Part shown: positions 1 through 53,491 of the stretch, one piece after another
Layout of the letters: every line of letters starts with the position of its first letter
Position numbering within the stretch: position 1 is the stretch's first letter
Assembly: GCA_963544075.1 (NCBI GenBank)
Contig: CAUUDV010000001.1
Span: 727-64,726, forward strand
Origin: an uncultured Acholeplasmataceae bacterium
Lineage (GTDB): Bacteria; Bacillota_I; Bacilli_A; Acholeplasmatales; Acholeplasmataceae
Direction: 5' to 3'
DNA: 64,000 nucleotides
The notes under the pieces: generated by a model
The model's input: the letters and a program-made list of their open reading frames with translations, nothing else
What the model was told of the DNA's origin: nothing
Database searches by the model: none
Position numbers and translations under genes: made by a program

Positions 1-500
1 GAATCTATACTCTTGCTGATTTTGTTAAAAAAGACAATCAAAGAAAGTTGGCAGAACTTTACCGTCCGCAACATCTTTTAGAAACTATGGCAGCAGTTTC
101 TGGACGCTCTAAAGACTTTATTGAACCATATCAAACAAGTGTTCCTAAAAGTATGTCAAGAGAAGTAACCTTAAACTACGTAGTAGACTCGCTTGAAGCA
201 ATTATTGCTAAAATCAAACAAATTTACCAAGATTTAGCCGCCCAACTTGAAAACTTTGGACTTGAGGCAAAAACTGTTAACTTTAAGTTCAAAACCGCTA
301 ACTTTAAAACTTATACTCGTGCAAAAACTTTAACATACTTTATTTCTAGCGCTTTTGACATTCAAAATGCCCTTGAAGACTTCATTAAAGAAAAACTAGA
401 AATTGACGTGCCAATTCGCCTATTTGGCGTTGGTCTTTCTAACTTTAGAGAAATTAAACCAAAAAGCGACTTAAATAGTGGTTTTTTTAAAGCAGAGTAA
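1..500 (+). CDS. dinB: DNA polymerase IV (Y-family, DinB-like), C-terminal fragment; the 5' end lies outside the window
   Basis: The frame is open from the window edge (IYTLADFVKK...). The C-terminal little-finger-like region ends with PIRLFGVGLSNF, resembling the DinB C terminus. Confidence 0.65.
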   Translation, partial: IYTLADFVKKDNQRKLAELYRPQHLLETMAAVSGRSKDFIEPYQTSVPKSMSREVTLNYVVDSLEAIIAKIKQIYQDLAAQLENFGLEAKTVNFKFKTANFKTYTRAKTLTYFISSAFDIQNALEDFIKEKLEIDVPIRLFGVGLSNFREIKPKSDLNSGFFKAE

Positions 501-49623: not shown

Positions 49624-50504
49624 GACTAATACTGCTTGGAAATGACAACTTCACTAAAGAAATTTTAAACAAGCTGATAATTCACCACGAAGTTTTGGCG
49701 TTGGTTGTCAAAAACTTGCCGAAGTTCAACAAAGAAACTAATGGTTTAATTGAGTTTGCAAAAGTAAATGGTATAGAAGTTATATTTAGCTCAAACTTAA
49801 AAGAAACTTTACCAGAACTGCTTAAACTTACTCCAGATAAACTAATCACTGCTTCTTTTGGGATGTGGATACCGAGAGAAGTGCTAAACTCTTTTGAAGT
49901 AATCAATGTTCACACTTCTCTGCTTCCGAAATACAGAGGGGGTGCTCCTGTTTTTTGGGCAATCTACAACCGAGATAAAACTACAGGTGTTTCTATCATG
50001 CAAACTGTTTTAAAAATGGATGCAGGCCCTGTCTATAGTCAGGTAGAAGTAGAAATTAAAGAAACAGATAATTTCACTACTTTAAATCAAAAACTCGCAG
50101 AAACAGGCGGAGACCTTTTGATTTCAGTTCTTACAAACTTAGACAAAATCAAGCCAGTTGAACAAAGCGAAAAAGACACGACTTTTGCCTATATACCTGC
50201 AAAAAAACTAGAAAAACTTGATTTTATGCAAGACAATACTCAGGTTCTTGCCCAAATCAACGCAAACGCCGATAAACCAGGTGCTTACTTTTTGCAAAAT
50301 AACACTATTTTTAAAGTCTTTAAAGCCGTGTTGTCTGAAAAAACCTTAGAACCCGGTCTAATTGAAGTTAGCACTAAGCGTATGTTTATAGGCTGCGCAA
50401 AGGGTTCTATTGAAGTCCTTTTAATTCAAAAGGACGGGAAAAAAATCCTTTCGGTTAAAGACTTTTTAAACGGCAATAACTTAAACGGGCTAAAAGCAAA
50501 TTAG
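49620..50504 (+). CDS. fmt: Methionyl-tRNA formyltransferase
   Basis: Contains INVHTSLLPKYRGGAPVFWAI. 294 aa. Confidence 0.93.
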   Translation: MRLILLGNDNFTKEILNKLIIHHEVLALVVKNLPKFNKETNGLIEFAKVNGIEVIFSSNLKETLPELLKLTPDKLITASFGMWIPREVLNSFEVINVHTSLLPKYRGGAPVFWAIYNRDKTTGVSIMQTVLKMDAGPVYSQVEVEIKETDNFTTLNQKLAETGGDLLISVLTNLDKIKPVEQSEKDTTFAYIPAKKLEKLDFMQDNTQVLAQINANADKPGAYFLQNNTIFKVFKAVLSEKTLEPGLIEVSTKRMFIGCAKGSIEVLLIQKDGKKILSVKDFLNGNNLNGLKAN

Positions 50505-51347: not shown

Positions 51348-51764
51348 TTAAAGGTCTAAATCAGAGTTTTGGTCTTTTATTTCAACATCATAGTCACTTT
51401 CTGAAAAATCTGAATACATTGAATCTGTGTTGTCATAAAAACTGTTTGTTTTTTCTTCTTGTAGTTGTTCTAATTTAATAACTTCAAAATCAACAACGTT
51501 CACACTATAGCGTGTTTTGTTAGTGTTTGTGTAGTTATCAACATAACTGTATGCAGTAAAACGACCGTGTAGAGAAATATATTGGTCTTTAACTAAACTT
51601 GCTGCGTCTTCGGCTTTTTGGCCAAAAAAATAAATTTTAAAGTTATCTCTTATTTCACCAAATGATCTTTTTACAGAAAGCACCATACTAGTAATTTGTC
51701 TGTCACCTGTTTTGTTTACAAAAGGCTCTGAAACTATTTGCCCTGATAGAAATATATTGTTCAT
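51348..51764 (-). CDS. Divergent SSB-like OB-fold protein with an acidic C-terminal tail
   Basis: MNNIFLSGQIVSEPF...MVLSVKRSF...ISLHGRF pattern resembles the SSB N terminus. Acidic tail ...SDYDVEIKDQNSDLDL. Confidence 0.6.
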   Translation of the reverse strand: MNNIFLSGQIVSEPFVNKTGDRQITSMVLSVKRSFGEIRDNFKIYFFGQKAEDAASLVKDQYISLHGRFTAYSYVDNYTNTNKTRYSVNVVDFEVIKLEQLQEEKTNSFYDNTDSMYSDFSESDYDVEIKDQNSDLDL

Positions 51765-51924: not shown

Positions 51925-51954
51925 TTGAAAAAAAAAAAAAAAAACGACTATCAT
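51925..51954 (+). promoter_or_regulatory. Candidate promoter whose spacer is a poly(A) tract (possible phase-variable element)
   Basis: TTGAAA (51925-51930), an 18-nt spacer that is mostly poly(A), then TATCAT (51949-51954). It lies upstream of RBS aggag and the lipoprotein ATG at 51987. Confidence 0.45.
51928..51944 (+). repeat. Homopolymeric A17 tract
   Basis: Run of A residues. The length of 17 is cross-checked against the ORF-track translation E-K-K-K-K-K-R through this region. Confidence 0.9.
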
Positions 51955-51986
51955 ATACTTTGTTTGAAAAAGGAGTGATTTTACAT

Positions 51987-53297
51987 ATGAAAATCAAAAA
52001 AATCTTAATGTATCTGATGCTTCCAGCATTATTGCTTACTTTAGTTGCGTGTGGTGGCGAGAAGCCAACCCCAACACCTCAACCTGCGCCAATACCTACC
52101 CCAACACCTCAACCTACACCAAAACCAGATGAAAACCCAAAACCTTCTAAAGTTGAATACAGTGTTAAGTTCTTTGATGGTCAAACTTTACTTGCTGACA
52201 AGACAGTTGAAAAAAATAAAACAGTTGTCTTACCTGCAAACCCTGTAAAAGAAGGACATGAGTTTAATGGTTGGTATCTAGATAAAACATTTGCCCAAAA
52301 ATTTGAAGCAACTCAAAAAGTTGCTAGCAATTTAAATATCTACGCTAAGTTCGCCCCACTTAAATACAACGTAGACTTCTTTGATGGCGCTAACAAAATC
52401 GCCAACAGAGTAGTTGAATATAACCAAACAATTCAACTACCAGATGCTCCTAAAAAAGATGGACATAACTTCGTTGGTTGGTTTCAAGACAGCGAACTTA
52501 CTAAAAAACTAGATTTATCTACTAAAGTTACAAAAGATACTAAAATCTACGCAAAATATCTAACAGACTTAGAGTATTTCTTAGATGCAAGAACTAACAC
52601 GGTTGAAAAAGATACTTTTAAATACAACTACAGTCTTTCTTTTACTAATGTTTTTGAAAACAAAATTAAAAACGTTCCGCTACTAGGCGCTTTCTTCAAC
52701 GGAACTACTTACTACAACCGCAACAACAGTCTATCTTACCTAAGAGATGAAATCACAAGTGGTGCTTTACTAAAAGATCAACACAACTACCATTTCTTAA
52801 AAGACGGAAAACTACACAAAGTAGCCTACAAACACAATAAAAAAACTAATAAAGACACAGATCCAAAAGAAACAATTAAAGAAAACTTCAATGAACCGTA
52901 TGAATACTCAATTTACGCAAAAGCCTTATTTAAATACGCTAAAGATAAAATTAGTTCAGCTACCAAAAAGGGTTCAGTTTACGAGCTTACTTTTACAGAA
53001 AGCCAAATTGATTTAATTAAAGAATTCTTAATTTCACACGGACAAGAAAAAGTAGCGGGTAAGCTTAAACAAGAAAACATCCGTGAAATTGAAGTTAGCG
53101 TAGAAATTGATGCACAAACCCACACTATTTCTAAGTTCAGATATAGTTTTGAGTTTGCTCAAGAATTTGAACAAAAAATTTTTGGCAAAATCGTAAAAGG
53201 TACTTTAGTTTCTAAATTAAACTACGAACTTGCATTTGACAAAGCATTCAATGGAGAAATTCCGCTTGACAGCAATGTTAAACCTTTTGTTAAATAG
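51987..53297 (+). CDS. Surface lipoprotein with a Pro/Thr-rich linker and two Listeria-Bacteroides (Flg_new-type) repeats
   Basis: Signal peptide MKIKKILMYLMLPALLLTLVAC (lipobox), PTPQP linker, and repeats EGHEFNGWYLDKTF...NIYAKF and DGHNFVGWFQDSEL...KIYAKY. Confidence 0.8.
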   Translation: MKIKKILMYLMLPALLLTLVACGGEKPTPTPQPAPIPTPTPQPTPKPDENPKPSKVEYSVKFFDGQTLLADKTVEKNKTVVLPANPVKEGHEFNGWYLDKTFAQKFEATQKVASNLNIYAKFAPLKYNVDFFDGANKIANRVVEYNQTIQLPDAPKKDGHNFVGWFQDSELTKKLDLSTKVTKDTKIYAKYLTDLEYFLDARTNTVEKDTFKYNYSLSFTNVFENKIKNVPLLGAFFNGTTYYNRNNSLSYLRDEITSGALLKDQHNYHFLKDGKLHKVAYKHNKKTNKDTDPKETIKENFNEPYEYSIYAKALFKYAKDKISSATKKGSVYELTFTESQIDLIKEFLISHGQEKVAGKLKQENIREIEVSVEIDAQTHTISKFRYSFEFAQEFEQKIFGKIVKGTLVSKLNYELAFDKAFNGEIPLDSNVKPFVK

Positions 53298-53318
53298 ATA
53301 AAAAACTTTTGACTTTTA

Positions 53319-53372
53319 AAAAAGCCGCTACAAACTTATTTTTTGAAAAATAAGTCCTAATGTGGCTTTTTT
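53319..53372 (+). terminator. Compound hairpin terminator after the lipoprotein gene
   Basis: Inner stem acttatttt/aaaataagt, outer partial stem aagcc.../...ggctt, then a T-run. Confidence 0.5.
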
Positions 53373-53491
53373 CATACACAAACTACATAACAAAGCCATT
53401 TATTCTAGCAAAAAAATTAGTTTAGATTATTATTGCGTTTTTTTTGACTATATGATATTATTATAAAAATACCCAAAAGGAGGAGTAAAAA

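What the first reader, a model, noticed from the sequence alone, without database searches (positions are those of the whole stretch)
51925..51989. A17 homopolymer forms the promoter spacer of a surface lipoprotein gene, a candidate phase-variation switch
Seen: TTGAAA (51925-51930) runs straight into a 17-nt A tract (51928-51944). TATCAT follows at 51949-51954, giving an 18-nt spacer, then RBS aggag and the lipoprotein ATG at 51987. Losing one A would give the optimal 17-nt spacing. Established: in Mycoplasma hyorhinis vlp genes and other mollicute surface-antigen genes, slipped-strand changes in a poly(A) promoter spacer switch expression on and off. Inference: the Flg_new-repeat lipoprotein may be phase-variable.
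Basis: partly seen in the sequence, partly recalled or inferred. Interest (0 to 1): 0.6.

Follow-up and report, generated by a model that had tools for sequence, protein, structure and literature searches.

The report
Variable poly(A) tract in lipoprotein promoter
A run of 17 A's lies between the two predicted promoter boxes of a surface-lipoprotein gene in an uncultured, small-genome Acholeplasma-like bacterium that has lost mismatch repair. Its length ranges from 7 to 19 in sister lineages, so it is very probably a slippage-driven expression switch of a well-known kind, not yet shown to switch.

Summary

- **Not chance.** Homopolymer runs in this 737-kb genome stop at 9 nt and resume as seven tracts of 14-23 nt.
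- **Not Mycoplasma.** The organism uses the standard code (TGA is stop).
- **Fast-evolving.** In 17 other independent assemblies of the locus the flanks TTG and TAT(C/T)AT stay fixed. The tract reads 7, 7, 8, 8, 8, 12, 13, 14, 14, 14, 14, 16, 17, 19, 19, 19 and at least 18. Length difference is uncorrelated with gene divergence, and 98%-identical genes carry A7 versus A14. Five assemblies break at the tract.
- **Spacing matters.** Its own promoters show TTG enriched exactly 17 nt upstream of -10 boxes.
- **No mismatch repair.** The genus lacks MutS1 and MutL.
- **Recurring design.** Homologues carry A12 or (TA)7.5 in the same spacer.
- **Self-contained unit.** The gene is monocistronic with its own terminator.

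The short alleles (7-8 A) have intact ORFs, which does not fit a strict ON/OFF reading.

Verdict: a well-supported new member of a known kind, of moderate interest.

The parts
51925..51930 (+). Predicted -35 hexamer TTGAAA (TTG plus the first three A's of the tract)
   Evidence: TTG is kept in 15 of 16 aligned alleles; L071 has TTA. Genome-wide, TTG is enriched exactly 17 nt upstream of -10-like boxes.
51928..51944 (+). Uninterrupted A17 homopolymer, the hypermutable element
   Evidence: Length is 7-19 in orthologous loci. Contigs break at or in it in L007, L011, L017, L001 and L022.
51945..51948 (+). CGAC linker between the tract and the -10 box
   Evidence: CG is invariant and the next two bases vary (CGAC, CGAA, CGCC, CGAT). 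A 3' 'CG' follows 6 of the 7 long tracts in the genome.
51949..51954 (+). Predicted -10 hexamer TATCAT. An overlapping alternative, TATACT, lies at 51954-51959.
   Evidence: TATCAT is found in 15 of 16 alleles and TATTAT in L097. The 61%-identical homologue has CGA-TAAAAT after an A12 tract.
51961..51962 (+). Inferred transcription start, about 7 nt after the -10 box (not mapped)
   Evidence: Inference from promoter geometry only.
51967..51975 (+). Short A5 run followed by the ribosome-binding site AAGGAG (51970-51975), 11 nt before the ATG
   Evidence: The short run is A4, A5 or A6 in relatives.
51987..53297 (+). Lipoprotein gene of 436 aa. It has a signal peptide with lipobox LVAC (Cys22), a Pro/Thr-rich linker, two InlB-B-repeat-like (Flg_new) domains and a C-terminal beta-rich domain of unknown function.
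   Evidence: Structure model and fold search: (2y5p, TM 0.85 for the repeats). The family is restricted to this lineage.
52068..52126 (+). 30-nt tandem repeat (2 copies) encoding the PTPQP linker; linker length differs among relatives
   Evidence: The N-terminal sequences give proteins of 424-436 aa.
53318..53377 (+). Intrinsic terminator-like compound hairpin with a U run downstream of the lipoprotein gene, which makes the unit monocistronic
   Evidence: -19.5 kcal/mol, z = -4.25, 0 of 200 shuffles as stable.
51348..51764 (-). Divergent SSB-like gene bounding the intergenic region.
   Evidence: A TGgTATAAT lies about 25 nt before its start. In five relatives this neighbour is replaced by an inserted cassette while the promoter module is kept.

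Best explanation
The A17 run is a slippage-prone simple-sequence repeat that forms the spacer of the sigma-A promoter of a single-gene unit encoding a surface lipoprotein.

The lineage has lost the MutS1/MutL mismatch-repair system. One-base gains and losses made during replication therefore go uncorrected, and the tract changes length far faster than the surrounding DNA.

Each change moves the fixed TTG (-35) relative to the fixed TATCAT (-10). This organism's promoters prefer exactly 17 nt between the boxes. A16 should give the strongest promoter, A17 (this genome, 18 nt) a weakened one, and longer or shorter tracts little -35-dependent transcription. The outcome would be heritable, reversible, stochastic variation in the amount of this lipoprotein on the cell surface (phase variation, or a graded 'volume' switch).

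Shown here: the anatomy, hypervariability between lineages, the genome's spacing preference, loss of mismatch repair, and recurrence of repeat-in-spacer designs at homologues.

Inferred: the transcription start, within-population switching, and the effect of length on expression.
For: - **Anatomy:**
- **Tract is exceptional:** runs stop at 9 nt, then seven tracts of 14-23 nt.
- **Variable tract between fixed flanks:** n = 7, 7, 8, 8, 8, 12, 13, 14, 14, 14, 14 (with TTA), 16, 17, 17, 19, 19, 19 and at least 18.
- **Length is saturated against divergence:** Spearman rho 0.03, p 0.75. Pairs 96-98% identical differ by 5-7 A's.
- **A8 confirmed by a second assembler** on the same run.
- **Assemblies break at the tract** in 4 of 17 species representatives plus one ENA contig.
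- **Canonical spacing is used here:** TTG occurs 24 times at 17 nt, against about 5.5 background and 9 at 18 nt.
- **Mismatch repair lost:** MutL is absent in 5/5 genomes of the genus sampled in that search. The only MutS is MutS2.
- **Long tracts confined to two repair-less, reduced-genome genera:** tracts of 14 nt or more recur in every sampled genome only there. Fourteen of the other 18 sampled genera have none, and four genera have one to four in single genomes.
- **The design recurs:**
  - The 61% homologue has TTG-A12-CGA-TAAAAT.
  - The 63% homologue has TTGATT-(TA)7.5-TAAACT.
  - A second copy, TTG-A11/15/16-CAC-TATGAT, sits before a DUF262-like gene.
  - The sister genus has TTGC-A14-CGG-TATAAT before a membrane protein.
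- **Monocistronic unit with its own terminator**.
- **No RNA family and no leader structure**.
- **Literature precedent:** M. hyorhinis vlp poly(A) and M. mycoides Vmm (TA)n promoter spacers (PMC10502178).
Against: - No reads could be examined, so heterogeneity inside one population is unproven. Contig breaks can also come from poor sequencing of long homopolymers.
- The transcription start is unmapped.
- The hexamer match alone is at chance level.
- Only 3 of 17 measured alleles fall in the predicted ON window (15-17 A).
- Five alleles of 7-8 A (spacer 8-9, with no alternative -35 that I could find) keep intact ORFs. Either transcription does not strictly need this -35, or these are recent locked-off states.
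- The other long tracts in the genome are not in promoter spacers. Tract accumulation could therefore partly be a mutational by-product of losing mismatch repair.
- Illumina-based MAG consensus lengths of 17-19 are uncertain by about +/-1.
Confidence: 0.62

Rival explanations
1. The tract is hypermutable but functionally neutral. It would be a by-product of mismatch-repair loss in an AT-rich intergenic region. The gene would be transcribed from a -10-driven promoter that does not care about the position of the TTG, so length changes have no phenotypic consequence.
For: - Short alleles (7-8 A) keep intact ORFs.
- Only 3 of 17 alleles have a 16-18-nt spacer.
- Long tracts also occur at places that are not spacers.
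- Tracts are concentrated in the repair-less genera.
Against: - A neutral run should decay by point mutation. Instead it stays pure at the same place in 17 other assemblies of this locus up to about 12% diverged, between an almost invariant TTG and -10 box.
- Runs of 10-13 nt are absent from the whole genome, so long runs are not tolerated at random.
- All long tracts sit before surface, defence or methylase genes.
- Repeat-in-spacer designs recur independently at homologues, including a dinucleotide repeat.
- The organism does use a 17-nt -35/-10 spacing.
Confidence: 0.2
2. The tract acts as a graded modulator rather than a binary switch. A rigid, curved A-tract spacer or UP-like element would tune promoter strength over many lengths, possibly with helical phasing. 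Lengths of 7-8 and 17-19 differ by about one helical turn.
For: - The length distribution is bimodal, with a cluster at 7-8 and a broad cluster at 12-19.
- At the cas9/Na-H exchanger locus the tract lies 6 nt upstream of a -35 box, which is the UP-element position.
Against: - No -35-like hexamer is brought into register in the short alleles (my own inspection of the sequences).
- After the tract there is room only for a -10 box and a 25-nt leader, so the tract cannot be an UP element of a downstream promoter here.
- The phasing idea rests on 17 data points.
Confidence: 0.12
3. The tract lies inside an N-terminally extended coding sequence, as a poly-Lys stretch, and works as a translational frameshift switch. 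Gene callers produced 444-454-aa versions that start upstream of the tract.
For: - An ORF from TTG 51882 runs in frame through the tract into the lipoprotein.
- Longer products are on record for three relatives.
Against: - The upstream extension is read in different frames in different relatives and is not conserved as protein.
- It would bury the signal peptide and lipobox 35 residues inside the protein.
- A strong AAGGAG lies 11 nt before ATG 51987.
- Tract lengths are not related by multiples of 3.
Confidence: 0.02
4. The run belongs to something on the other strand, such as the T-tail of an intrinsic terminator or a small RNA, or it is an assembly artefact.
For: One of the seven tracts (contig C26) is preceded on the T strand by a perfect 7-bp hairpin.
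Against: - There is no hairpin next to this tract: -0.7 kcal/mol, weaker than the shuffles.
- No gene ends here on the minus strand.
- There is no Rfam hit and no structure (z = +1.85).
- The tract is present in 17 other independent assemblies made by three pipelines.
Confidence: 0.02

Closest known systems
Mycoplasma hyorhinis vlp genes (poly(A) tract in the -35/-10 spacer; Citti & Wise 1995, as summarised in PMC10502178)
   Same: - A pure poly(A) run of about 17 nt forms the promoter spacer of a single-gene unit.
- The gene encodes a surface lipoprotein.
- The lineage is wall-less, has a reduced genome and lacks mismatch repair.
- An added in-frame tandem repeat in the coding region could give size variation (52068-52126).
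   Different: - There is no sequence relationship to Vlp proteins. This protein carries InlB-B-repeat/Flg_new domains.
- It is a single gene, not a cluster of paralogues.
- The organism uses the standard genetic code and is labelled Acholeplasmataceae.
- ON/OFF switching has not been observed.
Mycoplasma mycoides Vmm, with a (TA)n repeat in the promoter spacer (PMC10502178). Haemophilus influenzae hif fimbrial promoter is a further example, from my own knowledge.
   Same: Repeat-length changes alter -35/-10 spacing. A 63%-identical homologue of this lipoprotein in another lineage carries TTGATT-(TA)7.5-TAAACT.
   Different: The window's own gene uses a mononucleotide run, not a dinucleotide repeat.
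Neisseria meningitidis promoter homopolymers. These are porA poly-G and opc poly-C (own knowledge) and the nspA poly-A tract (PMC6389960; only its title and abstract, as listed, were seen).
   Same: A homopolymer in or next to the core promoter sets the expression level of an outer-surface protein. Graded as well as ON/OFF outcomes are known.
   Different: These are Gram-negative pathogens that retain mismatch repair. The tracts are mostly G/C and shorter (9-14 nt).

Membership tests
Slipped-strand promoter-spacer phase-variation switch (vlp/porA type, a functional class) | An uninterrupted simple-sequence repeat lies between the -35 and -10 boxes of the promoter that drives the gene | tested here: met
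   TTGAAA-18 nt-TATCAT, with the tract filling the spacer. It is the only promoter-like site on the + strand of the 222-nt intergenic region. The boxes are conserved in 15-16 of 16 alleles. The transcription start is not mapped.
Slipped-strand promoter-spacer phase-variation switch (vlp/porA type, a functional class) | Repeat length varies among closely related strains while the flanks are conserved | tested here: met
   Length is 7-19 A across 18 assemblies of the locus, the window's own included. Genes 98% identical carry A7 versus A14. There is no correlation with divergence.
Slipped-strand promoter-spacer phase-variation switch (vlp/porA type, a functional class) | Length heterogeneity within a single population at high frequency (reversible switching) | not testable with these tools
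The only indirect hint is contig breaks at the tract in 5 assemblies.
Slipped-strand promoter-spacer phase-variation switch (vlp/porA type, a functional class) | Expression level depends on repeat length | not testable with these tools
   Indirect support: the genome's own promoters show a sharp 17-nt spacing preference. Caveat: alleles of 7-8 A keep intact ORFs.
Slipped-strand promoter-spacer phase-variation switch (vlp/porA type, a functional class) | The controlled gene encodes a surface-exposed or host/phage-interacting product | tested here: met
   Signal peptide with lipobox LVAC (Cys invariant). Two InlB-B-repeat-like domains.
Vlp lipoprotein gene family of Mycoplasma hyorhinis (homology) | Sequence or domain relationship to Vlp proteins and a clustered multigene vlp locus | tested here: not met
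   Pfam finds only Flg_new. All homologues are Flg_new proteins of uncultured relatives. The gene is single-copy next to opp. No direct comparison with a Vlp sequence was run.
Bacterial lipoprotein (Lgt/Lsp substrate) | N-terminal signal peptide ending in a lipobox [LVI][ASTVI][GAS]C | tested here: met
   MKIKKILMYLMLPALLLTLVAC, with Cys22 invariant in 14 of 14 homologues.
Rho-independent terminator (T run on the minus strand) | A GC-rich hairpin lies immediately 5' of the T run, downstream of a gene | tested here: not met
   No hairpin: -0.7 kcal/mol against a shuffle mean of -2.7. No minus-strand gene ends here.

The most novel reading that the evidence does not exclude
The tract would be one locus of a genus-wide 'phasome'. 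Two reduced-genome, mismatch-repair-less genera of this Acholeplasmataceae-labelled family keep 3-40 long A/T tracts per genome. These sit almost only in front of a few kinds of gene:
- Flg_new surface proteins (this lipoprotein and a family of 1500-1900-aa membrane-anchored giants);
- a Dam-like D12 methyltransferase, which would make a possible phasevarion;
- a DUF262-like gene, possibly a GmrSD-type restriction/defence gene (named from sequence motifs only);
- cas9, where a T run of 10-21 nt lies 33 nt before the ATG in 14 of 14 complete loci.

Stochastic gating of Cas9 and of surface proteins together would be a bet-hedging strategy against phage and host. It would have evolved convergently with Mycoplasma in a standard-code lineage.
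Probability: 0.3. Interest if true: 0.65.

Novelty: new member of a known kind. Interest (0 to 1): 0.42.

Why it matters
Slippage switches in promoter spacers are textbook for cultured pathogens such as Mycoplasma, Neisseria and Haemophilus. They are hardly documented for uncultured commensals.

Comparative metagenomics alone shows a vlp-like design here. It lies in a standard-code, Acholeplasma-like lineage with a genome of about 0.7 Mb. It comes with loss of MutS1/MutL and a small set of similar tracts before surface and defence genes.

If confirmed, it would mean that surface-coat randomisation is a general consequence or strategy of genome reduction in host-associated wall-less bacteria. 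It would also mean that MAG consensus sequences hide functionally important length heterogeneity at such sites. They also fragment there.

Tried and rejected
- **Reads.** The look-up of sequencing runs and read laying were both closed, so there is no within-sample test.
- **Exact-protein look-ups for more samples.** The window's own protein is not on record. Places with the same neighbouring genes are collapsed, so alleles from the same species in different samples were mostly not shown.
- **JGI metagenome pattern scan**. It gave two hits, and the one printed was unrelated, with the gap filled by non-A bases. It was a dead end.
- **Code 4.** ORFs were first read with TGA=Trp. In-frame TGAs pile up at ORF ends, so the code is 11 and later ORF calls were redone.
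- **Terminator on the opposite strand.** Rejected for this tract.
- **Structured leader or known RNA.** Rejected.
- **Upstream-extended ORF with a poly-Lys stretch.** Rejected.
- **Alternative -35 for the short alleles.** None was found by inspecting the sequences. TTGAAA-16-TATTTT fits the A8 alleles only weakly and does not fit A7.
- **Promoter-spacer reading for the other tracts.** It does not fit the giant-surface-protein or cas9 loci, where tracts lie 80-230 nt or 33 nt upstream with no -10 box after them.
- **C-terminal domain function.** The model is poor there (pLDDT 40-88) and gives only a weak LolA-superfamily match.

Full report
**Observation.** The sequence is as described.
- TTGAAA lies at 51925-51930 and a pure A17 at 51928-51944.
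- CGAC follows, then TATCAT at 51949-51954, giving an 18-nt spacer.
- AAGGAG lies at 51970-51975 and the ATG at 51987.
- The consensus scan returns the same pair (10 of 12 matches) as the only +-strand promoter-like site between the divergent SSB-like gene and the lipoprotein gene.
- Such hexamer pairs are no more frequent here than in shuffles (5 found against 7.6 +/- 2.7). The hexamers alone therefore prove nothing.
- The ORF (436 aa) has a signal peptide with lipobox LVAC and two Flg_new repeats.
- A structure model places the repeats on the InlB B-repeat fold (2y5p, TM 0.85). The C-terminal half remains uncertain.

**The tract is not chance.** In the 737-kb, 34% G+C genome, A/T runs decline steeply. 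There are about 60 runs of 8 nt and two of 9 nt for each base. None are 10-13 nt long, and then there are seven tracts of 14, 15, 17, 17, 18, 21 and 23 nt. All seven are intergenic.

**The organism.**
- In-frame TGAs cluster at the ends of TAA/TAG-delimited frames. TGA is therefore a stop codon and the code is standard.
- Related records are titled 'uncultured Acholeplasmataceae bacterium' MAGs.
- The genus holds 19 species-level genomes of about 0.5-0.8 Mb. Most other genera of the family have genomes of 0.8-2.2 Mb.

**Comparative anatomy of the locus.**
- The lipoprotein gene was found in 17 species representatives (86-93% protein identity) and in further assemblies from other studies.
- Sixteen promoters could be aligned, the window's own among them. 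TTG is kept in 15 and TATCAT in 15; L071 has TTA and L097 has TATTAT.
- The A run reads 17 (window), 8, 19, 14, 8, 19, 16, 14, 12, 14, 13, 19, 7, 14 (TTA plus A13), 7 and 8. L001 has 17, and L011 has at least 18 at a contig end.
- The A8 allele is reproduced by an independent assembler on the same run.
- Length difference is uncorrelated with gene divergence (rho 0.03, p 0.75).
- Close pairs still differ in length. L070 and L071 are 97.6% identical with 7 versus 14 A's. L003 and L009 are 96.2% identical with 19 versus 14.
- Contigs end in or within about 30 nt of the tract in four of 17 species representatives and in one ENA contig. This is expected for a heterogeneous or poorly sequenced homopolymer.

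**Does spacing matter in this organism?** In 279 upstream regions I looked upstream of 245 -10-like hexamers. TTG occurs 24 times at a 17-nt spacer and 9 times at 18 nt, against about 5.5 at every other spacing from 8 to 27 nt.
- The organism therefore uses a canonical -35 box with a sharp 17-nt optimum.
- A16 would be optimal.
- Most alleles seen in relatives are far off.

**Mutational context.**
- MutL is absent from all five genomes of the genus sampled in that search and from the sister reduced-genome genus, but present in 16 of 20 genera of the family.
- The only MutS-family protein in this genome is MutS2. It scores 628 bits on TIGR01069 and 138 bits on the MutS1 model, whose cut-off is 642. 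Other genera have MutS1 next to MutL, plus MutS2.
- Tracts of 14 nt or more recur in every sampled genome only in these two repair-less genera: 3-7 and 7-42 per genome. Fourteen of the other 18 sampled genera have none; four genera have one to four in single genomes.

**Recurrence of the design.**
- A 61%-identical homologue has TTG-A12-CGA-TAAAAT.
- A 63%-identical homologue in another lineage has TTGATT-(TA)7.5-TAAACT, a dinucleotide repeat in the spacer.
- A 57% homologue has an ordinary TTTAAG-17-TATAAT promoter.
- In several genomes a cassette lies between the SSB-like gene and the lipoprotein gene. It holds a DUF262-like gene plus a leucine-rich-repeat gene (both named from sequence motifs; no Pfam run).
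- That cassette has its own copy of the module..TTTT(A/G)CTTG-A11/15/16-CAC-TATGAT.
- In the sister genus, TTGC-A14-CGG-TATAAT precedes a membrane-protein gene.

**Unit boundaries.**
- A compound hairpin with a U run follows the gene (-19.5 kcal/mol, z = -4.25).
- oppA has its own promoter-like TTGCGT-17-TATTAT.
- The tract therefore controls this one gene.
- There is no Rfam family and no leader structure (z = +1.85).

**Interpretation.** The best reading is a vlp-type slipped-strand promoter switch. M. hyorhinis vlp and M. mycoides Vmm are the precedents (PMC10502178).

**Caveats.**
- The transcription start is unmapped.
- Only 3 of 17 measured alleles give a 16-18-nt spacer.
- Five alleles of 7-8 A keep intact ORFs. 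Basal -35-independent transcription, a graded effect, or recent locking remain open.
- Three relatives carry nonsense or frameshift lesions in the ORF (L001, L004, L017). This fits a dispensable contingency gene but could also be MAG error.

**The other tracts.**
- Four lie 80-230 nt upstream of a paralogous family of 1500-1900-aa, N-terminally anchored proteins that also carry Flg_new repeats. There the T run is on the sense strand.
- One lies 36-42 nt before a D12-class adenine methyltransferase that is present in only 4 of 19 genomes.
- One lies 33 nt before cas9 in most relatives, about 116 nt before the first ATG in this genome. It is present in 14 of 14 complete loci with 10-21 T's.
- These six are not obviously promoter spacers, so the class is mechanistically mixed. 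The window's tract is the only one in this genome with the classical spacer geometry.

**Verdict.** This is a new member of a well-known kind, of moderate interest. Interest would rise if the genus-wide set of tracts, including the one before cas9, is shown to switch.

Noticed in passing
whole genome (genome.fa); e.g. window 47617-49629: The genome uses the standard code. In-frame TGAs pile up in the first and last 10% of TAA/TAG-delimited frames (88 and 43 of 151). It is therefore not a TGA=Trp mycoplasma, although it is wall-less-like and only about 0.74 Mb.
   Followed up: yes
genome contigs C2:26872-26889, C12:231-244, C26:8039-8053, C27:643-659 (outside the window): Four other A/T tracts (14-18 nt) lie 80-230 nt upstream of paralogous giant (1500-1900 aa) N-terminally anchored Flg_new surface proteins. 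The T run is on the sense strand. The tracts are conserved but length-variable (13-21) in sister species. They are not in a -35/-10 spacer, and one follows a perfect hairpin.
   Followed up: partly
genome contig C22:1876-1896 (L100); relatives L110-L125: A T run of 10-21 nt lies 33 nt upstream of the cas9 ATG in 14 of 14 complete loci of the genus, and two contigs break at it. On the other strand it lies 6 nt upstream of the TTGATT-16-TATGAT promoter of a Na+/H+ exchanger, which is the UP-element position. In the window's genome the usual cas9 ATG region is replaced and no ATG precedes the RuvC-I motif.
   Followed up: partly
genome contig C6:1409-1431 (L099): An A23/T23 tract lies 36 nt before a D12-class N6-adenine DNA methyltransferase. 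The gene is present in only 4 of 19 genomes of the genus; the other three have T16. The tract is preceded by ATTTTACTTG or, in this genome, ATTTTGCTTG, matching the lipoprotein promoter. It is a possible phasevarion.
   Followed up: partly
genome contig C4:36092-38410 (L130) and family-wide searches: The mismatch-repair genes mutS1 and mutL are missing from this genus and from the sister reduced-genome genus, and only MutS2 remains. Sixteen of 20 genera of the family keep MutL.
   Followed up: yes
all seven long tracts of the genome and about 100 in the genus: The flanks are not random. The base 5' of the A run is C or G (never T in this genome, and mostly C genus-wide). The 3' flank is C in 7 of 7 tracts and CG in 6 of 7. 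Part of this comes from paralogy of the upstream regions. The rest is unexplained.
   Followed up: partly
window 52068-52126: A 30-nt tandem repeat (2 copies, 89% match) encodes the PTPQP linker after the lipobox. Linker length differs among relatives, giving proteins of 424-436 aa, and two assemblies break there.
   Followed up: partly
window 51967-51971: A second short A run just before the ribosome-binding site is A4, A5 or A6 in different relatives. It changes leader length but not the RBS-to-ATG spacing.
   Followed up: no
L092/L093:330-500 (63%-identical homologue from other studies): The homologous lipoprotein gene has TTGATT-(TA)7.5-TAAACT. This is a dinucleotide repeat in the promoter spacer, as in M. 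mycoides Vmm.
   Followed up: no
L004, L008, L009, L015; L149-L151: In several sister species a cassette is inserted between the SSB-like gene and the lipoprotein gene. It holds a DUF262-like gene (possibly a GmrSD-type defence gene) and a leucine-rich-repeat surface protein gene; both names come from sequence motifs, not a Pfam run. The poly(A) promoter module is present on both sides (A11/15/16 and A13-16). The synteny breakpoint is about 35-40 nt upstream of the tract.
   Followed up: partly
L001:73-129, L004:3001-3816, L017:21-701: The lipoprotein ORF is interrupted in three species representatives. The lesions are TTA to TAA at codon 19, a nonsense at codon 272, and a frameshift. This could be gene decay or MAG error.
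   Followed up: no
G019 (sister genus, complete 880-kb genome), L073-L089: About eleven copies of one repeat carry an A14-15 run at the same internal position (..gaaaccttagaaactc-A(n)-caacaaaatcaactg..). They possibly lie inside a multicopy gene.
   Followed up: no
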